Virus record (IMG/VR): IMGVR_UViG_3300034102_002845
Length of the DNA stretch: 64,000 nt
Source of the DNA: a virus
Lineage: Duplodnaviria > Heunggongvirae > Uroviricota > Caudoviricetes
Strand: one strand, 5' to 3'
Below are positions 9,965 through 61,891 of the stretch, one piece after another. A program made the translations under genes and the position numbers. The notes under the pieces were generated by a model. That model was given only the letters and a program-made list of their open reading frames with translations. It ran no database searches and was not told the DNA's origin. Position 1 is the stretch's first letter. Each line of letters opens with the position of its first letter.

Positions 9965-11092
9965 ATGAACATAGTTTATAGCACCCCTGTCCTACAGTCA
10001 ACAACTCGCATCGGCAAGGTCAAGTTTTGGCAAGGTCACGTTCTTTGTGATGACCGGGGGCAGTGGTTCACACAGTCGTCGTACTGGCAAACCAATAACG
10101 ATAGCTCTTCCTCAGTGATTCAGTTTAGTGATCCTTACTACGTTTGCGGCAAGAATATAGGCAGGTCTAACGAGACCTCCTCCGAGACTCAAGTTTACCT
10201 TGAAATCGAACGTGACTTTAAAAAGCAAGCAGATAAAGGTTACTCGGAGACTGGAAAAAAGTCAAAGGTTCTCCCACTGCCCATGTTGGCTCACAAGTTC
10301 TCGGAAAAAGGACACAAGGTTATCTGGCCTGCTTTCGTTCAACCTAAACTGAACGGACAACGGATGCTACTCGACAATAATGGGGGGTGGTCTCGCGGCG
10401 GCAAAGAAATCATTCCAGAGTGCATTGCTCACATCAAAGATGAGATTGGGCTATTACCTGACGGTGTGATTCTAGACGGAGAACTCATTCTGCCGGGAAA
10501 CCTTCTGCTGCAAAAAACAATGACGGCTATCAAAAAGTTTCGACCAGAGTTGTCCCCCACTCTCGTATACTGGGTATACGACATTGTTGACCCCTCTAAG
10601 ACATTCTCGGAAAGGTTTAGCTTGTTGAGAAACATTCTTGTCCTTGACAAAGAGCATGTGAAAGTCACACCTACGAAGACGGTGGGCAACGCTGCCGAAG
10701 TAATGGCCTACCACGAACATTTCGTTCGCCTCAGATTCGAGGGTTCCATGGTTCGCTTTGACTTGGAAGGTTACGACATTGGCCACCGCAACAACCAACT
10801 CCAGAAAGTGAAAGATTTCGTTGACGGCGAGTTTGAGGTTCTCGATATTGTGGAAGGCGGAGGCAGGTTCAAAGGTGCGGCAATCTTCGAGTGTCGTGCC
10901 ACCACCACGGAAACTTTCACAGTAGTTCCCGAAGGCGACATGGACTACCGCAGAGACCTTTACAGGAATCGAGAGGAAATTCTTTCCACAACGAAGTATC
11001 TTACCGTTCGATACCAAGAACTGAGCAAAGATGGCGTTCCAATCTTTCCTGTTGGGGTATCCTTGCGAGAGACTCAGACGGAGGGTTTCTGA
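9965..11092 (+). CDS. ATP-dependent DNA ligase
   Basis: QPKLNG (motif I), LDGEL (III), EGSMVR (IV), LQKVK (V), C-terminal OB fold. Confidence 0.9.
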   Translation: MNIVYSTPVLQSTTRIGKVKFWQGHVLCDDRGQWFTQSSYWQTNNDSSSSVIQFSDPYYVCGKNIGRSNETSSETQVYLEIERDFKKQADKGYSETGKKSKVLPLPMLAHKFSEKGHKVIWPAFVQPKLNGQRMLLDNNGGWSRGGKEIIPECIAHIKDEIGLLPDGVILDGELILPGNLLLQKTMTAIKKFRPELSPTLVYWVYDIVDPSKTFSERFSLLRNILVLDKEHVKVTPTKTVGNAAEVMAYHEHFVRLRFEGSMVRFDLEGYDIGHRNNQLQKVKDFVDGEFEVLDIVEGGGRFKGAAIFECRATTTETFTVVPEGDMDYRRDLYRNREEILSTTKYLTVRYQELSKDGVPIFPVGVSLRETQTEGF

Positions 11093-26022: not shown

Positions 26023-26103
26023 TGGGGTGTAGCATAATTGGTAATGCAGCTGGCTGTTAACCAGTGTCGAAAGACAATGAAGGTTCGAATCCTTCCACTC
26101 CAG
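26023..26103 (+). tRNA. trnN: tRNA-Asn(GTT) with extra GAAA-capped variable arm
   Basis: loop CTGTTAA; TGTC-GAAA-GACA arm. Confidence 0.85.
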
Positions 26104-26418: not shown

Positions 26419-26503
26419 CGCCCCATCGACTAACGGCGTCGTAGCCAGGTTAGGTCGCTACTTTCTTAAGGTAGAAATGCCGGTTCGACTCCGGCTGGGG
26501 CGA
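26419..26503 (+). tRNA. trnK: tRNA-Lys(CTT) with ~13-nt hairpin insertion in the D loop
   Basis: CTACT-TTCTTAA-GGTAG; GGC-GTCGTA-GCC insertion. Confidence 0.7.
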
Positions 26504-27159: not shown

Positions 27160-27207
27160 TACGGCGGTTCCCGTCCTTGTTTCTGCCCCGCAGAAACGCT
27201 ATACTAA

Positions 27208-27427: not shown

Positions 27428-27586
27428 GGGAAATTAGCTCAGCGGTAGAGCCCTGGGCACATTACCCAGGTGAGTGCTTCAGTACGAGTGTCGAATGGCG
27501 GATTGATCCCCGACCTTCGCCTTTGTAACAGCACGCTCACAACCTGATCAGTTGAGAGAGCGTTGGTTCGATTCCAACATATCCCA
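27428..27586 (+). ncRNA. 159-nt tRNA(CAT)-like RNA with 92-nt variable-region insert
   Basis: CTGGG-CACATTA-CCCAG arm, normal D and T arms, insert 27470-27561. Confidence 0.7.
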
Positions 27587-27724: not shown

Positions 27725-27769
27725 TTTGCCCCACTGTGGGCAATCTGTTCACCCCACTGTGGTTGAAGT

Positions 27770-27841
27770 GCGAATGTAACTCAGCGGTAGAGTACCTCGT
27801 TGCCAACGAGAATGTCGAGGGTTCAAATCCCTTCATTCGCT
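27770..27841 (+). tRNA. trnG: tRNA-Gly(GCC)
   Basis: loop TTGCCAA. Confidence 0.9.
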
Positions 27842-27869
27842 CTTTCCCTTAAATAGGGATCACAGTCAA

Positions 27870-27951
27870 GCCCGCCTGGTGAAATTGGTATATACGCTAG
27901 TTTTAGGAACTAGTGCCGAAAGGCGTGGGAGTTCGAGTCTCCCGGCGGGTA
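27870..27951 (+). tRNA. trnL: tRNA-Leu(TAG)
   Basis: loop TTTAGGA; long variable arm. Confidence 0.9.
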
Positions 27952-28001
27952 TGTTCTCTTTACGGAGAACTCTAGCTCCTTGACTTAATTCAGGGTGCAA
28001 A

Positions 28002-28120
28002 GAGCAAGTAGCTCAGTTGGTAGAGCGGCAACCTCCTCTGAGTCTCGCAAGAGACTCTCGGTAAAGGACCGTAACGCTGGAGGGCAAAGCAAGCCGTTGG
28101 TTCAAGTCCAACCTTGCTCC
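28002..28120 (+). ncRNA. 119-nt tRNA scaffold with anticodon arm replaced by a branched domain
   Basis: GAGCAAG/CTTGCTC acceptor, canonical D and T arms, GAGTCTC-GCAA-GAGACTC hairpin. Confidence 0.7.
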
Positions 28121-28195
28121 TTTCCTTGCTACCTCAGCCAAGGGTTTACTTCCCCCTTGGGAAGCTATCATAGCTTCTATACTCAAGGCAGCCGC

Positions 28196-28266
28196 TTCGA
28201 AGTCGTCTAACGGTAGGACACCTCCCTTTGAAGGAGATTATATAGGTCCGAATCCTATCTTCGAAA
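28196..28266 (+). tRNA. trnQ: tRNA-Gln(TTG)
   Basis: loop CTTTGAA. Confidence 0.8.
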
Positions 28267-28707: not shown

Positions 28708-28789
28708 GCGGGTATAGCTCAGCGGTAGAGCACTTGTTTTCCAAACAAGAGGCGAATAGTTCACGCAGGTTCAAATCCTGTTACCCGCT
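28708..28789 (+). tRNA. trnG: tRNA-Gly(TCC) with 15-nt variable region
   Basis: CTTGT-TTTCCAA-ACAAG; GCGAA-TAG-TTCAC arm. Confidence 0.8.
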
Positions 28790-28820
28790 CTTTTCTCTCA
28801 CGAGAAAACTTAAGTAAAAT

Positions 28821-28957: not shown

Positions 28958-29167
28958 ATGGAAAACAGCCCATCTTGGCACTCGTACAAAGCCGTCAACA
29001 TAGACGGGATCTACTACAACACACCCTTCATTAAAGAGGTTGTCGAGCAGTTGATCCGGAAAAGCTTCCTCGTTCGATCCGGACTTGATGAATATTCCCT
29101 TGCCGAGGTCTTTGCACTCAAAGTTCTTGACGGTAGTAACAAGCTTCCTTCTGAAAACGGGCGGTAA
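28958..29167 (+). CDS. hypothetical protein (probably leaderless)
   Basis: ATG 6 nt after -10-like hexamer. Confidence 0.55.
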   Translation: MENSPSWHSYKAVNIDGIYYNTPFIKEVVEQLIRKSFLVRSGLDEYSLAEVFALKVLDGSNKLPSENGR

Positions 29168-29226
29168 ACCGCCCTTTCCCTTTCCGAGGAAAGGCGCTAT
29201 GATTGCACTGTAGCCGGAACAAACTA

Positions 29227-31757: not shown

Positions 31758-31806
31758 AGATGATTCAGCGATTCACAATTTCTTTTTGGTAGAAAAACAA
31801 TCATCT
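31758..31806 (+). ncRNA. 50-nt repeated structured element, copy 3
   Basis: near-identical to copy 2. Confidence 0.75.
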
Positions 31807-31839
31807 TGTACAACCTTTGAGTCACAGCTCAAAGTAAAA

Positions 31840-31922
31840 GGGTGTGTGCCCGAGCGGTCGAAGGGAACCGGCTGTAACCCGGTTTGTTATGCACACGTAG
31901 GTTCGAATCCTTACCACACCCA
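31840..31922 (+). tRNA. trnY: tRNA-Tyr(GTA)
   Basis: loop CTGTAAC; long variable arm. Confidence 0.9.
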
Positions 31923-31967
31923 TTGTTTTGCTAGCGCAAACCCCCCCGTAAACCACGGTACTCTAAA

Positions 31968-32546
31968 ATGAGTCACGACGAAGACTATGAGTTTGAAAAA
32001 GCCTATTGGGGCGACTGTTGCAATACTTACGACGAAGAAACGAAGCAGTTTGTCTACGGGAGACTAATGGGATTGCGTCAGACTCACTACGGTTTTGACG
32101 TGGCCGGAAAGAGAGTCCTTGATATTGGGGGTGGCCCGAGTAGTCTTCTCCTAAAAGCTGTAAACCTATCTGAAGGAAAAGTTGTAGACCCGATTGCCTA
32201 CCCCCAATGGACCGTTGACCGGTACGAGACTAAAAACATCTCGGTTTCGGTTTCGCTGGGGGAAGACATTGAAGAGGAAGGGTGGGACGAGGTATGGATG
32301 TACAATTGCCTCCAGCACACCGTAGACCCTGCAAAGATCATTCGTAACGCCCTGAGAGCCGCACCGATTTTCCGAATTTTCGAATGGGTAGACGTCCCGG
32401 CCCACGAAGGCCACCCTCACAAACTCACCGAAGTTTCTCTGAATGAGTGGATAGGCCAGCTAGGTTGCACCGCCAATCTGTCCGAGTTCGGGTGCTACGG
32501 ACGAGCCTACTACGGGTGTTTTCAAACTCGTTGCCCTAACCCTTAG
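31968..32546 (+). CDS. class I SAM-dependent methyltransferase
   Basis: RVLDIGGG motif I; WDEVWMYNCLQH. Confidence 0.8.
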   Translation: MSHDEDYEFEKAYWGDCCNTYDEETKQFVYGRLMGLRQTHYGFDVAGKRVLDIGGGPSSLLLKAVNLSEGKVVDPIAYPQWTVDRYETKNISVSVSLGEDIEEEGWDEVWMYNCLQHTVDPAKIIRNALRAAPIFRIFEWVDVPAHEGHPHKLTEVSLNEWIGQLGCTANLSEFGCYGRAYYGCFQTRCPNP

Positions 32547-32861
32547 ATAGCAAGGTTAACCAAATCGCCCTAGGGCGGTTTACCGCCCTTGCACCGACGG
32601 TTTCCACCCTTGTTTCTGCGGGACAGAAACGCTATAGTAGTTAGGTTGGAACCAAAGCACCATGGACCCCCCTGAACCAAAACCTTAGTCTGACCGACCG
32701 TGTCTGGCGGTTTGCCGCAGATCACGTTGACCCAGACCCCTTAATTCAGGCTAGATTCCTATCCCTTGTCTCAGCTCTCCTGGACGCAGGGATCGAGTCA
32801 GGACGCGAAGCTGAACCCGTGGGTTAACACCCCACCCACCCCTTGACCCTTAGAGCCAACG

Positions 32862-33062
32862 ATGAAAATCAAAGCAATCACCCCTATGGGTACTTTCCTC
32901 TCTGTAGAGCTTCACATAACGGACCTCAAAAGACACTGTCTCGAAGAGACGTTGACTACGAAGATGAAAGATCTTAAGTTCTTCAACTTTGTTACTGATG
33001 AGGGTCCGACCTATTTGGGTACGGACGTGATTCAAAACTCCGTTTTTGTCCTCCTGGGTTGA
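32862..33062 (+). CDS. hypothetical protein
   Basis: ORF. Confidence 0.45.
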   Translation: MKIKAITPMGTFLSVELHITDLKRHCLEETLTTKMKDLKFFNFVTDEGPTYLGTDVIQNSVFVLLG

Positions 33063-33174
33063 AAGCGATAGGGCACAGGTTTCACTAACGTAAAACACTT
33101 AGAGTCCCACACCCTTAGAGGTGGTGACCACCTTGACTCCCTGAGACTTCTTCATGAAGATCTTCCAAATAAAC

Positions 33175-33246
33175 ACTCGGTTAGCTCAGCGGTAGAGCGC
33201 CCTCCTTACAAGTGGGATGTCGCCGGTTCAATCCCGGCACCGAGTA
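33175..33246 (+). tRNA. trnV: tRNA-Val(TAC)
   Basis: loop CTTACAA. Confidence 0.9.
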
Positions 33247-33332
33247 TTTGGAGCCTTCCTTGAAAAGATCGCTCCTTCGCATCCCAGGTATGAAGCCACC
33301 ATACCAACCCCCTGGACTTAAATCCACGGCAA

Positions 33333-33403
33333 GCCCCTATAGCTCAGTGGCAGAGTGCCTCTTTGGTAAGGAGGAGACGCGAGTTCAACTCTCGCTGGGG
33401 GCT
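33333..33403 (+). tRNA. trnT: tRNA-Thr(GGT)
   Basis: loop TTGGTAA. Confidence 0.9.
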
Positions 33404-33408
33404 TTTCT

Positions 33409-33792
33409 TTGAGTGCGAGTATTTGTATGGATCCCTCACGAGCCTTGCTCCTTGTGACTTTGCTCCTTGTCAAGCACTTTGTTGTGGACTGGTTGTTGCA
33501 AACAGACGACGAGGTGAAGCACAAGGGCACCTACCTCCATCCCAATGGAATACAGCACTCGGCGAAGCACGCACTTGCAACAATGCTCGTGTTCCTTCCC
33601 TTCTTCCCTCCTGAGTCTATCTTCTTAGGGTTGATTGACGGTGTGCTACATTATCACATTGACTGGCTAAAGCAAAATCTTGCTCGAACCCTAAGGCTCT
33701 CACCAACCAACAAGGAGTTCTGGGTGCTCATCGGCATTGACCAGCTTCTTCACCAACTCACTTACTTGGCCTTGGTCTTTTCACAGATTTAA
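33409..33792 (+). CDS. DUF3307-like membrane protein
   Basis: KHFVVDWLLQ...HYHIDW.K...IGIDQLLH. Confidence 0.75.
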   Translation: MSASICMDPSRALLLVTLLLVKHFVVDWLLQTDDEVKHKGTYLHPNGIQHSAKHALATMLVFLPFFPPESIFLGLIDGVLHYHIDWLKQNLARTLRLSPTNKEFWVLIGIDQLLHQLTYLALVFSQI

Positions 33793-54088: not shown

Positions 54089-54547
54089 ATGACCATTCAA
54101 ACAAGACAAGCAGCTTTTGAAACCAACAGTTCAAGCACCCACTCACTCAGTATCTCTTCAGGTTCCACAGATCTCCTTGATACCTTGCCCTTAAACGAAC
54201 AGGGGGAAGTGGTCCTCAATGGGGGCCAGTTTGGCTGGGGAGTGGAAGACTACTCCGATGCGGGCACTAAGGCGAGTTACGCGGCCATTTACGTTTCCGA
54301 CTGGTCTGGGGAAAAGAGTGCGGAGTTCAAGGAAGTTCTTGACACAGTAATCAAGCAGCAAACGGGTTGCTCAAACGTTGTATACGATTTTTCTACAGAC
54401 TGGTCTCACCCAAGGGAAACATCGTACATCGACCACCAGTCTGTTGAGGGGGGTCAGCTAGACTACTTGTTCGAAGACCCAGAACTTTTGCGCCAGTTTA
54501 TCTTCAACCCTCGCAGTGTCCTTCATACCGACAATGACAATTACTGA
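54089..54547 (+). CDS. FETNSSSTHS-motif phage protein
   Basis: R..AFETNSSSTHSLSI...YIDHQS. Confidence 0.75.
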   Translation: MTIQTRQAAFETNSSSTHSLSISSGSTDLLDTLPLNEQGEVVLNGGQFGWGVEDYSDAGTKASYAAIYVSDWSGEKSAEFKEVLDTVIKQQTGCSNVVYDFSTDWSHPRETSYIDHQSVEGGQLDYLFEDPELLRQFIFNPRSVLHTDNDNY

Positions 54548-55430
54548 GACAGTCCTTCACGCGTACAAAAACGGCAACTGCAACGTTACTTTGTGGTCTG
54601 GCGGCACCAAGACTCGAGAGAATCTGGACGCAGACCACCCTTGGGCAGAACACCCGGAAAGCATTGACATTAAGGTTACAAACTTTTGCGACCTGGCATG
54701 CCCTTACTGTCACGAAAACTCTACTCTCGAAGGAAAGCACGGGGATCTGAACCGCTTACTTACAGTTTTGGAGCCTTTACCGCCAGGAGTAGAGCTGGCG
54801 ATAGGGGGTGGAAACCCTCTCTCTCACCCTGACCTTATACCGTTCCTTCGCAAAGTTAAGACCAAAGGGTTGGTGGCTAATTTAACCGTAAACGAGAGAC
54901 ACCTGGAACCCTACAAGTTTCTTTTGAGCTACTTGCGATGGAAAGATCTAATAAAAGGTATTGGTGTTTCAGTTACAGGTTCGAACCTACCCCTGGTAAA
55001 ACAATTTCTGGAAAACAACCCGCACACCGTGTTTCATGTAATTGCTGGTGTGCACTCGCCCAGAGTTCTATCAGACCTAAGCACCCTCCCGAACAGCAAA
55101 ACTCTTGTGCTCGGGTACAAAACCTTTGGCCGTGGTATCCAGTTCTACGGTAACAAGACCAAGAAGCTTCTTTCCGAATGGTACAGGGCCATCCCAACTT
55201 TCCTTGGAAAGACACACTTGTCGTTCGACAACCTTGCTGTGGAACAACTTAACATCAAGAGATTGCTAACGAACGAGGGTTGGTCAAAGTTTTACATGGG
55301 GGACGACGGTAGCTTCACAATGTACATCGACGCCGTCGACGGAACGTACGCAAAAACAAGTCGGAGCAGCGAACGCACTCCGTTCGATAGCACGGACCTA
55401 CTCACTTACTTCCAAAGTTTGTCCAAGTGA
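54534..55430 (+). CDS. radical SAM protein
   Basis: CDLACPYC (CxxxCxxC), GGGNPL. Confidence 0.9.
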   Translation: MTITETVLHAYKNGNCNVTLWSGGTKTRENLDADHPWAEHPESIDIKVTNFCDLACPYCHENSTLEGKHGDLNRLLTVLEPLPPGVELAIGGGNPLSHPDLIPFLRKVKTKGLVANLTVNERHLEPYKFLLSYLRWKDLIKGIGVSVTGSNLPLVKQFLENNPHTVFHVIAGVHSPRVLSDLSTLPNSKTLVLGYKTFGRGIQFYGNKTKKLLSEWYRAIPTFLGKTHLSFDNLAVEQLNIKRLLTNEGWSKFYMGDDGSFTMYIDAVDGTYAKTSRSSERTPFDSTDLLTYFQSLSK

Positions 55431-58157: not shown

Positions 58158-59300
58158 ATGACAATTACACGAAAAGAAATTGAAGACGGGATGATCCTGT
58201 TTTGCAAGTCAGGCAGCCACGCCTATGGCCTCAACACCGAGATGTCTGACCTGGACTTTAAGGGCATCTGTGTTGCGCCACAGCGGTTTTACACCACTCT
58301 CGAAACATTTGAGCAAAAGGATAAAGGGTGGGCAGGGGAGCAACAAGACGAGGGTGAGTTCAACTCAAGATTCCCTGAGTTAGATAATTCCGACTCAGTG
58401 GTGTACGGCATTCGCAGGTACCTGAGCTTGTTACGGTCGCAAAACCCAAACATTTTGGAGATGCTGTGGCAAACTCCCGAAAGCTACCTATACCTTGACT
58501 TTCTGGGGCAGTCGCTAATTGATAACCGAAGGAAGCTCATTTCCAAGAGAATCTCTGGCACATTCGTTCAGTACGCAAGGTCCCAGATCAAGAAAATGGA
58601 GACTCACCGCAAGTGGCTCTTAAACCCTCCAACACGGCGACCGACGTGGGAGGACTACGGGGTTTCTTCGCCGAGCTTAACCCCCTCTCAAATCGAGTCA
58701 TTCATTGAGTACTTGTACTTGCTGATTAAAGACAGAATCGAATACTACCAGCCTTCAGTCGAGCTGTACGAGTTACTCAACGACCGAGTTGATTGGAAGG
58801 GAATCCTGAAGCAGAGTGTCTTACCGGAAGAGTGCTTCGACGAGACGCAGAAAATCACGAGGGCAAGTGACGAGTACATGGCCCTTCTTCACTCAAGCCA
58901 GCAGTACCGGTCAGATTTAAAACGGTGGAGTAATTACCAAGATTGGTTGACTAATCGGAATGTGAAGCGATCCGAAATTGAGCGGGCCTGTGGGTACGAT
59001 GGGAAGAACGCCAGCCACTGTGTTCGACTTATGAAAATGGCTATTGAGGGAATGCGAACCGGAGAGCTTCTTGTGAATAGGAAGTTAGCGGGGGACGCAG
59101 ATTTTCTTCTGGACATTAAGTACGGCAAGATTACGTATGACGAACTAAGCTCAATTGTAACTCAACTGTTTAAGGAGGCTGAGCACGTAATGACGAACGA
59201 GTGCGTCTTACCGAGCACGGTAGATGACCAACTCATCAATACTCTTTGCGCTGAGACTGTGGAAAAATTTCAAAGTCTCGGTTGTATTGAGAACCGGTGA
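58158..59300 (+). CDS. DNA polymerase beta-superfamily nucleotidyltransferase (RlaP-like)
   Basis: GSHAYG....SD.D.KG; NPNILEML; YDGKNASHCVRL. Confidence 0.8.
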   Translation: MTITRKEIEDGMILFCKSGSHAYGLNTEMSDLDFKGICVAPQRFYTTLETFEQKDKGWAGEQQDEGEFNSRFPELDNSDSVVYGIRRYLSLLRSQNPNILEMLWQTPESYLYLDFLGQSLIDNRRKLISKRISGTFVQYARSQIKKMETHRKWLLNPPTRRPTWEDYGVSSPSLTPSQIESFIEYLYLLIKDRIEYYQPSVELYELLNDRVDWKGILKQSVLPEECFDETQKITRASDEYMALLHSSQQYRSDLKRWSNYQDWLTNRNVKRSEIERACGYDGKNASHCVRLMKMAIEGMRTGELLVNRKLAGDADFLLDIKYGKITYDELSSIVTQLFKEAEHVMTNECVLPSTVDDQLINTLCAETVEKFQSLGCIENR

Positions 59301-61305: not shown

Positions 61306-61499
61306 CTGAAGGAGACCTAGAAAAGTTGGTAGAAAACGGAGACATTCTGAGCTACTCTTACTTAGAGGTTAAAGATTACCAGGGCTCACACTGCGGAGAA
61401 TACCTACAACTCAATTTACCGTCCGGAGCTTGCATAGGGGTAAGCTCGTGGTCAACTCCCGCCCCTGAAACGAGTGGGCTAAGAATAGGAGTTTATTAG
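61302..61499 (+). CDS. hypothetical protein
   Basis: ATGA overlap. Confidence 0.5.
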   Translation: MTEGDLEKLVENGDILSYSYLEVKDYQGSHCGEYLQLNLPSGACIGVSSWSTPAPETSGLRIGVY

Positions 61500-61530
61500 G
61501 CGGACAGTCCTACCATACGACTCTAAACTA

Positions 61531-61831
61531 GGGGTAGCTCTGGAAGATAGTGCCCTATACAGGGGTTCGAATCCCCTCACCTCCATTTGAGAACGTGACC
61601 GTCCCTTCTTCAACCTTCCGACTTACTGAGAAGGCAGGGTCACTGTGGGTTAAACTCCCACCTCTAGTCAAGGGGGTGCCATGGTCTCGCTAGGGTAAAG
61701 ATGTCGCCTGAGTGAAAGCCGCTTGCATAAGCACAAAATAGACGCTAACAACATCGTCAAATTCGAGAGGATTGCCGTTGCCGTTTGAGCAACCGCACTC
61801 TGACTCATAACTCGGGGGGTTTCGGCCCCCT
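61531..61831 (+). ncRNA. ssrA: two-piece (circularly permuted) tmRNA: acceptor piece ~61531-61585, intervening segment, coding piece from 61672; tag (A)ANNIVKFERIAVAV
   Basis: AGGGG-TTCGAAT-CCCCT T arm and CACCTCC-A lie upstream of GGGGGTG (G3.U70); helix TAGGGTA/TGCCCTA; tag ORF 61744-61788. Confidence 0.9.
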
Positions 61832-61891
61832 TACACCGCCAACTTTCCTGGCCAAAACAGCACCCTACACTCCAACCCACGCTGAAACACT

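What the first reader, a model, noticed from the sequence alone, without database searches (positions are those of the whole stretch)
28002..28120. Perfect tRNA frame whose anticodon arm is replaced by a three-way junction
Seen: a flawless acceptor (7 Watson-Crick pairs), D arm and T arm. The 69 nt between D and T arms form CCTCC/GGAGG enclosing GAGTCTC-GCAA-GAGACTC and CGGT-AAAGG-ACCG. No anticodon loop is identifiable. It resembles the tRNA-scaffold constructs used in RNA engineering.
Basis: partly seen in the sequence, partly recalled or inferred. Interest (0 to 1): 0.72.

Follow-up and report, generated by a model that had tools for sequence, protein, structure and literature searches.

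The report
Anticodon-less tRNA-shaped phage RNA family
This is a real, conserved gene for a tRNA-shaped RNA that has no anticodon and carries a small conserved folded module instead; it belongs to a family of at least 65 such genes in uncultured phages, matched no Rfam family other than tRNA itself, and may work with a poorly understood RNA-repair ligase.

Summary
Window 28002-28120 has a perfect 7-bp acceptor stem, D arm and T arm. It scores as tRNA in Rfam (45 bits) only when the region is searched alone, and 59 nt replace the inner anticodon arm.

It is not a one-off. A covariance model finds about 65 distinct relatives at 68-110 bits (ordinary tRNAs reach 53 or less). They come from lake, sediment and other metagenomic phages of 38 to 543 kb, one copy per genome in the 16 whole records searched, almost always among tRNA genes.

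The stems covary. A GGY-NAAGG-RCC hairpin and the junction around it are conserved.

No member yields a consistent anticodon. Contigs from four RNA libraries carry the element uninterrupted.

My best reading is a non-decoding RNA that uses the tRNA frame for processing and stability and the module as a docking site.

There is one new lead. In a 38-kb phage without any tRNA gene, the element lies 7 nt behind an Rnl5-type nick-sealing RNA ligase gene, and 9 of 10 fairly complete element-bearing phages encode that ligase. This enrichment is shared with phages that have other interrupted tRNA genes.

This scan noted the same RNA earlier on a related genome.

The parts
28002..28008 (+). Acceptor stem, 5' strand (GAGCAAG)
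   Evidence: Pairs with 28113-28119, 7 of 7 Watson-Crick. Across the family 6 of the 7 pairs show changes on both sides and 97% of cells are paired. G7-C66 is invariant.
28011..28026 (+). D arm: GCTC stem, AGTTGGTA loop with G18 G19, GAGC stem
   Evidence: Aligned to the D arm of Rfam's tRNA model. 98% of cells are paired across the family.
28028..28029 (+). Remnant of the anticodon stem, 5' side (G27, C28), followed by unpaired AA (28030-28031)
   Evidence: Pairs with 28089-28090. These two pairs covary in the subfamily: GC/GC, GG/CU, GG/CC, AG/UU. About 20 other members keep a full 4-5-bp covarying stem here.
28032..28036 (+). Extension helix (P-ext), 5' strand CCTCC
   Evidence: Pairs with GGAGG at 28079-28083. 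In the family 3 of the 4 modelled pairs change on both sides and the innermost C-G is invariant.
28037..28039 (+). Junction strand J1 (TCT; TCA in most members)
   Evidence: Its C (28038) covaries with the G of J3 (28076): 56 C:G, 3 U:A, 1 U:G and 0 mismatches among 60 distinct sequences.
28040..28057 (+). Hairpin 1 (GAGTCTC-GCAA-GAGACTC), optional and variable
   Evidence: Absent in about half the family. Where present, its sequence and loop differ but a hairpin is kept. A close relative seen in RNA-library contigs and in locus L342 has three fully compensatory pair changes: A-U to G-C, G-C to C-G, C-G to U-A.
28059..28071 (+). Hairpin 2 (CGGT-AAAGG-ACCG), the conserved signature of the family
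   Evidence: The loop NAAGG is invariant even in members found without requiring it. The loop-closing pair covaries: U-A, C-G, U.G, G-C.
28072..28078 (+). Junction strand J3 (TAACGCT): A-rich, then YGCY
   Evidence: Conserved as A-rich plus GC(C/T) across the family. G at 28076 pairs with C at 28038.
28079..28083 (+). Extension helix (P-ext), 3' strand GGAGG
28084..28088 (+). A-rich internal loop or bulge on the 3' strand (GCAAA)
   Evidence: Every member has a 3-8-nt A-rich bulge here (ATAA, AATAA, TGAAA, GTAAA). Some carry an extra hairpin at this site.
28089..28095 (+). Anticodon-stem remnant, 3' side (GC, 28089-28090), and variable loop AAGCC
   Evidence: alignment. The variable loop ends in GCC in all members, including five found without that constraint.
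28096..28112 (+). T arm: GTTGG stem, TTCAAGT loop, CCAAC stem
   Evidence: 100% of cells paired.
28113..28120 (+). Acceptor stem, 3' strand (CTTGCTC), and discriminator C. No CCA is encoded (TTT follows).
   Evidence: The discriminator varies across the family: T 34, A 13, C 9, G 4.

Best explanation
The element is a gene for a stable, non-decoding, tRNA-shaped RNA. Shown: it keeps every feature that makes a tRNA body (7-bp acceptor stem, D and T arms with the elbow-forming G18 G19 and TTC loops). It lies inside a poly-tRNA stretch, 50 nt behind tRNA-Leu(TAG). It belongs to a conserved phage family present once per genome in the 16 whole records searched. Its anticodon stem-loop is replaced by a long irregular arm: 2-5 stem pairs, an A-rich bulge on the 3' strand, a GC-rich 3-5-bp helix, a junction closed by a covarying C:G pair, an optional variable hairpin, and an invariant GGY-NAAGG-RCC hairpin flanked by A-rich linkers. 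Inferred: the tRNA frame lets the host's tRNA enzymes (RNase P, 3' trimming, CCA addition) cut the RNA out of the precursor and stabilise it. The conserved module is the working part, a docking site for a partner. The most likely pathway is the phage's RNA repair or anti-defence system built around an Rnl5-type nick-sealing RNA ligase, with the RNA acting as a tRNA-like cofactor, tether or decoy, much as the tRNA-like Y RNA YrlA accompanies Ro60 and RtcB in bacterial RNA-repair operons. I put about 0.8 on 'non-decoding structured RNA whose module is the selected part' and about 0.3 on the ligase or RNA-repair partnership. The stated confidence is for the whole statement.
For: Frame and fold.

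Family: model R1 scores members at 67.7-109.8 bits and ordinary tRNAs at 53.4 or less. It finds 80 hits, 60 of them distinct, plus 7 more distinct variants.

Covariation: 98.4% of cells are paired against 80% in shuffles. The covariation score is 0.457 against 0.098. Slid controls give 31-53% paired. The J1-J3 pair shows 56 C:G, 3 U:A, 1 U:G and 0 mismatches. The closing pair of hairpin 2 covaries while its loop is invariant. Hairpin 1 has three compensatory changes in a near relative.

Selection on the module rather than on a decodable tRNA: in the window's subfamily the anticodon stem is reduced to 2 pairs while the module is intact. The discriminator and acceptor sequence vary freely.

No anticodon.

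Uninterrupted copies in RNA-library contigs: contig pieces from four lake metatranscriptome runs of three studies cover it without a joint. X2 record 6 spans 27769-28232 and X3 record 15 spans 28002-28219.

Processing context: members sit 5-10 nt from ordinary tRNA genes. Terminator-like sites at 27163-27175 and 29159-29174 frame the local tRNA stretch.

Copy number and loss: one copy in each of the 16 whole records searched. A relative (G053) has only a deletion remnant at the syntenic site, so intact copies are being maintained.

Ligase lead: in the 93%-complete 37.9-kb phage G006, which has no ordinary tRNA gene, the element begins 7 nt after the stop codon of a 338-aa ligase. That ligase matches phrog_968, Pfam PHA02142 OB-fold plus RNA_ligase, and NgrRnl 5COT at E 1e-22 over its full length. 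The ligase lies 2.3-5.5 kb from the element in three other lineages. It is present in 9 of 10 element-bearing virus records that are at least 48% complete, against 2 of 25 tRNA-bearing control phages (Fisher 7e-6). RtcB is found in 1 of 20 and EndA in 0 of 20, so this is not a general enrichment of those two other RNA-processing enzymes; no other repair families were tested.
Against: No partner has been shown. Gene neighbours are not conserved across lineages.

The ligase is far more common than the element: 0 of 37 ligase-bearing phage records, 5 of them complete, have the element.

The ligase is about as frequent in phages with other kinds of interrupted tRNA genes: 12 of 22, p = 0.11 against the element set. 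The enrichment may therefore belong to those genes or to shared ancestry. The records are not phylogenetically independent.

The RNA-library data are assembled contigs. They can contain DNA, cannot show ends or CCA, and drop rare spliced forms.

Processing by RNase P, CCA addition, stability and lack of aminoacylation are all inferred, not measured.
Confidence: 0.55

Rival explanations
1. It is an interrupted tRNA gene. The module is a small protein-dependent intron at or near the canonical 37/38 site. Its 3' end pairs with the anticodon loop, in a relaxed bulge-helix-loop layout. An endonuclease and a ligase remove it and produce a working tRNA.
For: About 20 members with an intact 5-bp anticodon stem share the 5' strand stem-CCC-UCA and the 3' strand GGG-(A-rich)-A-stem. 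Cutting after UCA and before the last bulge A would leave a 7-nt loop CCCUCAA. ARAGORN with introns reads 8 such members as Glu(CUC). The layout (stem, helix, bulge on each strand) resembles archaeal BHB/BHL introns. Many other phage tRNA genes carry 40-60-nt inserts whose removal restores canonical tRNAs, for example L094 Ile(GAU) and L102 Val(UAC). Phages with such genes are enriched for the Rnl5 ligase: 14 of 28 against 2 of 28.
Against: The putative loop would have C33 instead of the near-universal U33. The body is not tRNA-Glu-like, and the window already has Glu(CTC) and Glu(TTC) genes. In the window's own subfamily of about 39 distinct sequences, the stem is reduced to 2 pairs and the register is one nucleotide longer, so no canonical loop can be formed. 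ARAGORN assigns 16 different identities across the family. The discriminator varies. The 'intron' is better conserved than the 'exons'. EndA is absent in 20 of 20 records. Contigs from four RNA-library runs carry only the uninterrupted form. A loop junction is not the nicked duplex that Rnl5 ligases seal (PMC5397189).
Confidence: 0.1
2. It is a tRNA-scaffolded aptamer or sponge. The conserved junction and NAAGG hairpin bind a small molecule, for example a host immune signal or metabolite, or a host RNA or the ribosome, rather than a phage protein.
For: The conserved core is about 30 nt: a helix, a junction closed by an isolated covarying pair, A-rich linkers and an invariant loop, which is typical of compact ligand-binding folds. 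It occurs in a 38-kb phage with few candidate protein partners. No protein neighbour is conserved.
Against: The region matches no riboswitch or other Rfam family up to E = 10. No ligand or target is indicated. The only sequence-based target ideas I could test failed: a displayed codon was refuted, and the AAGGA Shine-Dalgarno or CsrA-like motif is not conserved.
Confidence: 0.1
3. It is mainly a cis-acting processing or stability signal, a tRNA-like punctuation mark like mascRNA behind MALAT1. RNase P cleavage there defines the ends of neighbouring transcripts, for example the 3' end of the ligase mRNA in G006.
For: It lies 7 nt behind the ligase stop codon in G006 with no recognisable terminator between them. 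Elsewhere it is packed between tRNAs.
Against: Any ordinary tRNA would serve that purpose. This does not explain the invariant NAAGG hairpin, the covarying junction, or strict single-copy conservation across phages of 38-543 kb.
Confidence: 0.07
4. It is a decaying tRNA pseudogene or a chance fold.
For: It has no anticodon. A relative (G053) holds a deleted remnant at the same site.
Against: About 65 distinct sequences share the architecture with compensatory changes in five helices and one tertiary-like pair. It is 98% identical in the nearest record while hairpin 1 changes by paired substitutions.
Confidence: 0.02

Closest known systems
YrlA and other bacterial Y RNAs (tRNA-like module plus Ro60-binding stem; encoded with RtcB in the Salmonella rsr-yrlBA-rtcBA RNA-repair operon). 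From my own knowledge, plus the abstract of PMC7790460 as listed.
   Same: A non-coding RNA that imitates a tRNA body, is not used for decoding, and travels with RNA-repair enzymes. Phages also carry such RNAs.
   Different: In YrlA the RNA ends lie in the Ro60-binding stem and the 'acceptor' end is closed by a loop. Here the acceptor stem is open as in a real tRNA and the foreign module replaces the anticodon loop. The region gave no Rfam Y RNA match up to E = 10. The associated ligase is Rnl5-type, not RtcB (1 of 20 records).
Phage T4 species 1 and species 2 RNAs (rnaC, 139 nt; rnaD, 119 nt)
   Same: Small stable RNAs of unknown function encoded inside a phage tRNA cluster, directly behind tRNA-Arg. 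rnaC ends in a T-arm-like CCGGG-TTCGAAT-CCCGG hairpin.
   Different: Neither belongs to this family: rnaC reaches only 15.4 bits with R1 and rnaD gives no match. They lack the D arm plus NAAGG-hairpin architecture.
Engineered tRNA-scaffold RNAs (Ponchon and Dardel design).
   Same: The same design: acceptor, D and T arms are kept for processing and stability, and the anticodon stem is extended to carry a foreign structured RNA.
   Different: Those are artificial. This is a natural, conserved gene family whose cargo is one specific conserved module.
Archaeal and eukaryal tRNA introns with the bulge-helix-bulge or bulge-helix-loop motif
   Same: An insert at the anticodon loop. A helix forms between loop nucleotides and the 3' part of the insert, flanked by unpaired stretches on opposite strands.
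   Different: The helix is 3-5 bp, not 4. The bulges are 3-8 nt and there is an extra 3-5-nt linker. No EndA was found (0 of 20). Excision gives no canonical loop in this subfamily and a C33 loop in the others.
tmRNA
   Same: A tRNA-like acceptor and T-arm domain on a non-decoding RNA. A permuted tmRNA lies in the same window at 61496-61879.
   Different: tmRNA lacks a D stem, has a tag reading frame and pseudoknots, and has Ala identity (G3.U70). Here G3.U70 occurs in only 4 of 60 members and there is no reading frame.

Membership tests
Canonical tRNA (Rfam RF00005) | Cloverleaf frame: 7-bp acceptor stem, D arm, T arm, and a score above Rfam's gathering threshold | tested here: met
   45.4 bits against a threshold of 29, model positions 1-71, when searched locally. 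Not reported in the whole-window scan.
Canonical tRNA (Rfam RF00005) | 5-bp anticodon stem closing a 7-nt loop with U33 and an anticodon | tested here: not met
   Only 2 stem pairs remain, and 59 nt replace 13 model positions. ARAGORN makes no call. 59 of 60 family members are not called.
Intron-containing tRNA gene (BHB/BHL type) | Removal of the insert restores a canonical anticodon stem-loop with a consistent anticodon across homologues | tested here: not met
   ARAGORN -i gives Arg(CCT) with two stem mismatches for this element and 16 different identities across the family. Intact-stem members give at best a C33 loop, CCCUCAA.
Intron-containing tRNA gene (BHB/BHL type) | A splicing endonuclease (EndA family) is available | tested here: not met
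   PF01974 is absent from 20 of 20 element-bearing records, while four archaeal control genomes score. A host or unknown nuclease cannot be excluded.
Intron-containing tRNA gene (BHB/BHL type) | A spliced product exists | tested here: inconclusive
   Only uninterrupted contigs were seen in four RNA-library runs, with no joint inside 28002-28120. Contigs drop rare forms, and raw small-RNA reads were not available.
Group I intron in a tRNA gene | A ribozyme core of about 200 nt or more (P3-P8) inside the anticodon loop | tested here: not met
   The insert is about 46 nt, and there is no Rfam intron match up to E = 10.
Y RNA / YrlA | 5' and 3' ends paired in a Ro60-binding stem; closed tRNA-like acceptor end | tested here: not met
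   The ends lie in an open acceptor stem. No Rfam Y RNA match.
T4 rnaC / rnaD stable RNAs | Sequence and structure homology to the T4 RNAs | tested here: not met
   R1 with filters off gives 15.4 bits for rnaC and nothing for rnaD.
New family defined here (model R1) | tRNA frame, plus an A-rich 3' bulge, a GC-rich extension helix, a J1 C : J3 G pair and a GGY-NAAGG-RCC hairpin | tested here: met
   The window element scores 100.8 bits. All listed features are present.
Rnl5 nick-sealing RNA ligase (the proposed partner, G006 gene) | N-terminal OB module plus C-terminal nucleotidyltransferase domain, homologous to DraRnl and NgrRnl | tested here: met
   Pfam PF21189 plus PF09414. NgrRnl 5COT matches at E 1e-22 over residues 14-330 of 338. 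Of 14 control genomes only Deinococcus radiodurans scores. Catalytic activity and binding to the RNA were not tested.

The most novel reading that the evidence does not exclude
The RNA is the dedicated RNA partner (cofactor, tether, substrate mimic or decoy) of phage Rnl5-type nick-sealing RNA ligases. The two form a ligase-plus-tRNA-mimic cassette that counters host attacks on tRNA. This would give the first physiological handle on the Rnl5 family, whose functions are described as 'uncharted' (PMC5397189), and a natural counterpart of engineered tRNA scaffolds.
Probability: 0.22. Interest if true: 0.85.

Novelty: new variant of a known kind. Interest (0 to 1): 0.68.

Why it matters
tRNA-like non-coding RNAs such as tmRNA, YrlA and viral tRNA-like structures are few, and each has taught something about how cells recognise tRNA shape. 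This is a widespread phage family that standard annotation misses: default ARAGORN and the whole-window Rfam scan both skip it. The frame of a real tRNA is kept intact, while the decoding end is exchanged for one conserved module.

Its presence as the only tRNA-like gene of a 38-kb phage, directly behind an Rnl5 RNA ligase gene, offers a compact two-gene system that can be expressed and tested. The biological role of that ligase family is still open.

It also bears on how phage tRNA counts are interpreted. Such genes should not be counted as tRNAs, as pseudogenes or as intron-bearing tRNAs without evidence.

Tried and rejected
1. An exact search for hairpin 1 (GAGTCTCGCAAGAGACTC) in viral contigs gave 10 unrelated hairpins and no homologue.

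2. BLAST of the window element and of two other members against GenBank phage genomes gave only a 28-nt D-arm match to a tRNA-Gly, or nothing. No cultured phage with the element was found at that sensitivity.

3. Clustering of ORFs within 3 kb of 60 members found no protein family shared beyond close relatives. The largest cluster is a spurious antisense ORF over the element.

4. The idea that J1 'CUC/CUU + A' displays a Leu codon, like a T-box specifier, is rejected. The C covaries with a G in J3, so it is paired within the RNA.

5. The idea that the hairpin shows an AAGGA Shine-Dalgarno or CsrA-type motif is rejected. The A after GG changes to G in members found without forcing it, and only NAAGG is invariant.

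6. K-turn, loop E and strict BHB motifs do not fit the sequences, by inspection.

7. Reading hairpin 2 as a displaced anticodon loop (U-N-AAG-G-A) fails. Position 33 is variable, and the loop sits 12-14 bp from the elbow side instead of 5.

8. Reverse co-occurrence: 0 of 37 ligase-bearing records have the element, so the ligase does not depend on it.

9. The search for related loci with the 10-sequence ligase alignment failed because no block was conserved enough. A 4-sequence alignment worked.

10. RNA-library runs: bins without cover and contig depth say nothing about expression level. No raw small-RNA reads were available, so RNA ends, CCA and splicing could not be measured.

11. The other tRNA-scaffold RNAs noted in this window do not belong to this family: 27428-27586 scores only 30 bits with R1.

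Full report
**Setting.** The window looks like part of a large phage genome. Nearly all long ORFs lie on the + strand. ARAGORN finds 43 tRNA genes and a permuted tmRNA. The nearest held record is a 277-kb, 98%-complete IMG/VR virus (G001), which carries the element at 98% identity. The element lies 50 nt behind tRNA-Leu(TAG) and 75 nt ahead of tRNA-Gln(TTG). Terminator-like hairpins at 27163-27175 and 29159-29174 frame the local run of tRNA genes.

**The observation.**
- a 7-bp Watson-Crick acceptor stem (28002-28008 with 28113-28119) and discriminator C at 28120, with no encoded CCA;
- a D arm with the GG of the D loop and a T arm with the TTC loop;
- 69 nt between them, in which CCTCC/GGAGG encloses GAGTCTC-GCAA-GAGACTC and CGGT-AAAGG-ACCG.

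RNAfold gives this structure as the minimum-free-energy fold (-44.3 kcal/mol, z = -2.9). Rfam's tRNA model matches end to end at 45.4 bits when the region is searched alone, with 59 nt in place of the 13 inner positions of the anticodon arm. It keeps two stem pairs, G27-C and C28-G. Default ARAGORN and the whole-window Rfam scan miss the gene. ARAGORN with introns allowed gives a poor Arg(CCT) model with two stem mismatches.

**A family, not a singleton.** A gapped pattern (D-arm end, 55-85 nt, T loop) returned more than 114 viral loci. About 90 of them have a perfect 7-bp acceptor stem around a 40-60-nt insert. These fall into several unrelated classes. Three loci (L086, L048, L077) share the window's hairpin YGGN-RAAGG-NCCR.

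Further patterns brought in more members: viral contigs, JGI and ENA metagenomes and GTDB genomes (where all hits are MAG contigs and two of about 210-230 kb are probably phages). I built a covariance model (R1). It separates members (67.7-109.8 bits) from ordinary tRNAs (53.4 bits or less) and gives 80 hits, 60 of them distinct. Two variants with an extra hairpin (L380, L393) and five distinct members found without requiring AAGGACC bring the total to about 67.

Each of the 16 whole records searched holds exactly one copy. The records range from 38 kb to 543 kb. Members almost always lie among tRNA genes, often 5-10 nt from the neighbour. The RNA-library runs that hold the stretch are mostly lake-water metatranscriptomes.

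**Architecture from comparison.**
- Acceptor stem: 7 bp, free to vary but always paired. Six of the seven pairs change on both sides, and G7-C66 is invariant.
- Discriminator: variable (T 34, A 13, C 9, G 4).
- D arm, variable loop ending in GCC, and T arm GTNGG/CCNAC: conserved, also in the five members found without that constraint.
- Anticodon stem: 4-5 covarying pairs in about 20 distinct members. In the window's subfamily it is reduced to the two outer pairs, which still covary, opposite an AA / GYAAA internal loop.
- A 3-8-nt A-rich bulge on the 3' strand.
- A GC-rich extension helix of 3-5 bp. Three of the four modelled pairs change on both sides.
- Junction strand J1 (U-C-N) and junction strand J3 (A-rich, then Y-G-C-Y). 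The J1 C and the J3 G covary: 56 C:G, 3 U:A in two lineages, 1 U:G, no mismatch.
- Hairpin 1 is optional. It is absent in about half the family and differs in sequence and loop where present.
- Hairpin 2: GGY-NAAGG-RCC. The NAAGG loop is invariant even where it was not required by the search. Its closing pair covaries (U-A, C-G, U.G, G-C).

Overall, 98.4% of cells are paired against 80% in shuffles. The covariation score is 0.457 against 0.098, and slid controls give 31-53% paired. That alignment was fitted to the model, which favours the structure, but the slid controls and the independent regex-based counts agree.

**Is it spliced into a tRNA?** I looked for this in four ways.
1. No excision gives a canonical loop in the window's subfamily. 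The 5' strand is one nucleotide longer and the stem is broken.
2. In intact-stem members, cutting after UCA and before the last bulge A would give CCCUCAA, a Glu(CUC) loop with C33 instead of U33. ARAGORN -i members that way, but it assigns 16 different identities over the family.
3. The archaeal splicing endonuclease is absent from 20 of 20 records.
4. Contig pieces from four metatranscriptome runs of three studies cover the element without any joint. X2 record 6 spans 27769-28232, X3 record 15 spans 28002-28219, X1 record 1 spans 27769-28108, and X4 record 21 spans 28039-28189.

These are assembled contigs that may include DNA and would drop rare spliced forms, so they show that the uninterrupted form is present, not that a spliced one is absent. 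The relative seen in X1 and X2, identical to locus L342, differs in hairpin 1 by three fully compensatory pair changes, which is direct evidence of selection on RNA structure. In X3, homology to the window begins exactly at 28002 after 21 unlike letters, which fits the 5' gene boundary.

**What it might do.** The 'cargo' is better conserved than the parts that would be exons, while the acceptor sequence and discriminator drift. This argues that the unspliced RNA is the product and that no single aminoacyl-tRNA synthetase identity is kept. G3.U70 occurs in only 4 of 60 members.

Gene neighbours are not conserved across lineages, with one informative exception. G006 is a 37.9-kb, 93%-complete phage with an SU10-type capsid gene and no ordinary tRNA gene. 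There the element starts 7 nt after the stop codon of a 338-aa RNA ligase. The ligase matches phrog_968 (E 2e-44) and Pfam PHA02142 OB-fold plus RNA_ligase, and it aligns over its full length with the Naegleria Rnl5 ligase 5COT (E 1e-22).

The same ligase type lies 2.3, 3.1 and 5.5 kb from the element in three other lineages and 15-172 kb away in the rest. It is present in 14 of 22 element-bearing records, and in 9 of the 10 virus records that are at least 48% complete, against 2 of 25 tRNA-bearing control phages (Fisher 7e-6). RtcB occurs in only 1 of 20.

Rnl5 ligases seal nicks in duplex RNA, and their physiological role is described as uncharted (PMC5397189). The only nick-sealing ligases with assigned roles are the guide-RNA-dependent editing ligases, as stated in the same paper.

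**Caveats on the ligase lead.**
- The ligase is far more widespread than the element. About 475 viral contigs encode a relative, and 0 of 37 such records, 5 of them complete, hold the element.
- Phages with other classes of interrupted tRNA genes carry the ligase almost as often: 14 of 28 overall, and 12 of 22 at 48% completeness or more, p = 0.11 against the element set. Many element-bearing phages also have such genes.
- The records are not phylogenetically independent.

The element-specific evidence is therefore mainly the G006 cassette and the three near-neighbour cases.

**Comparison with known RNAs.**
- The closest in kind are tRNA-like non-coding RNAs. YrlA also accompanies RNA-repair enzymes, but it has a closed acceptor end and a Ro60 stem.
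- T4's species 1 and 2 RNAs are stable RNAs of unknown role inside the tRNA cluster. rnaC has a T-arm-like end, but neither matches R1.
- The engineered tRNA scaffold is the closest in design.
- I found no description of this family in Rfam 15 or in the literature searches I ran. Those searches cover open-access text only.

**Loss in a relative.** G053 is a 201-kb relative with the same ligase type. At the syntenic site behind tRNA-Leu(TAG) it has only a remnant: the acceptor 5' strand and D-arm start are fused directly to the T-stem 3' strand and acceptor 3' strand. The gene can be lost, so the intact copies elsewhere are being maintained.

**Verdict.** The element is a new, well-supported family of anticodon-less tRNA-shaped phage RNAs. 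A non-decoding RNA whose conserved module is the functional part is likely (about 0.8). A role with the Rnl5 ligase or RNA repair is a testable lead (about 0.2-0.3). A spliced tRNA is unlikely for this subfamily (about 0.1).

An earlier follow-up in this scan (e1-5382044) described the same kind of RNA on a related genome and reached the same basic reading.

Noticed in passing
Loci L013-L125 (viral contigs), e.g. L094, L102, L106: Dozens of phage tRNA genes have perfect acceptor stems and 40-60-nt inserts between the D and T arms. They fall into at least three other classes, marked by ACAGCAAU, GUUACUUC or GUUCCUAUU. In several, the insert sits inside the 5' strand of the anticodon stem, and removing it restores a canonical tRNA (L094 Ile-GAU, L102 Val-UAC). 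That would leave a nick in a duplex, which is the substrate of Rnl5 or Rnl2 ligases.
   Followed up: partly
Records G088-G115 against G023-G050: The Rnl5-type ligase (phrog_968) is present in 14 of 28 phage records with such interrupted tRNA genes, but in only 2 of 28 tRNA-bearing control phages (Fisher 8e-4). This hints that the ligase joins the exons of stem-located phage tRNA inserts.
   Followed up: partly
window 27428-27586: Another tRNA-framed RNA (159 nt, 30 bits with R1, not in this family). In contigs of two RNA-library runs from two studies, 72 nt (27446-27517) are replaced by CTTC. This looks like a strain variant in which a long hairpin is cut down to a tetraloop, not like splicing.
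   Followed up: no
window 26419-26503, 26023-26103, 28708-28790: ARAGORN calls a tRNA with anticodon TTA (reads the stop codon UAA; 85 nt; Rfam 31 bits over 26435-26503 only). It also calls unusually long class-I tRNAs: Asn 81 nt and Gly(TCC) 83 nt.
   Followed up: no
window 61496-61879: A permuted (two-piece type) tmRNA gene with tag ANNIVKFERIAVAV, called by both ARAGORN and Rfam RF04321 (68 bits).
   Followed up: no
G053:C1 about 2060-2110 (L527 about 1855-1905): A deletion remnant of the element at the syntenic site behind tRNA-Leu(TAG): GGCAAG-TA-GCTCAGTTGGTAG is fused directly to TCCAAC-CTTGTTG.
   Followed up: yes
G006 (L403+L404), 31794-33499 minus strand: A cassette of Rnl5 ligase, the tRNA-shaped RNA and a 181-aa ORF with a strongly basic N-terminus (no Pfam or PHROG match), directly upstream of the terminase gene. 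The same small phage also has a calcineurin-type phosphoesterase and a MazG domain protein.
   Followed up: partly
L524 (phage T4 70908-71171): T4 rnaC (species 1 RNA) folds with z = -4.6 and ends in a T-arm-like CCGGG-TTCGAAT-CCCGG hairpin next to an acceptor-like closing stem. rnaD shows no significant fold (z = -0.8).
   Followed up: partly
window 58158-59300, 9965-11092, 54516-55430: An RlaP-type nucleotidyltransferase (RNA-repair associated), an ATP-dependent DNA-ligase-type gene and a radical SAM gene lie in the same window as the tRNA array.
   Followed up: no
L262 10999-11125 and 11136-11245: The phage that holds family member L262 also has two other tRNA-framed genes with long inserts immediately upstream. 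ARAGORN calls neither, even with introns allowed.
   Followed up: no
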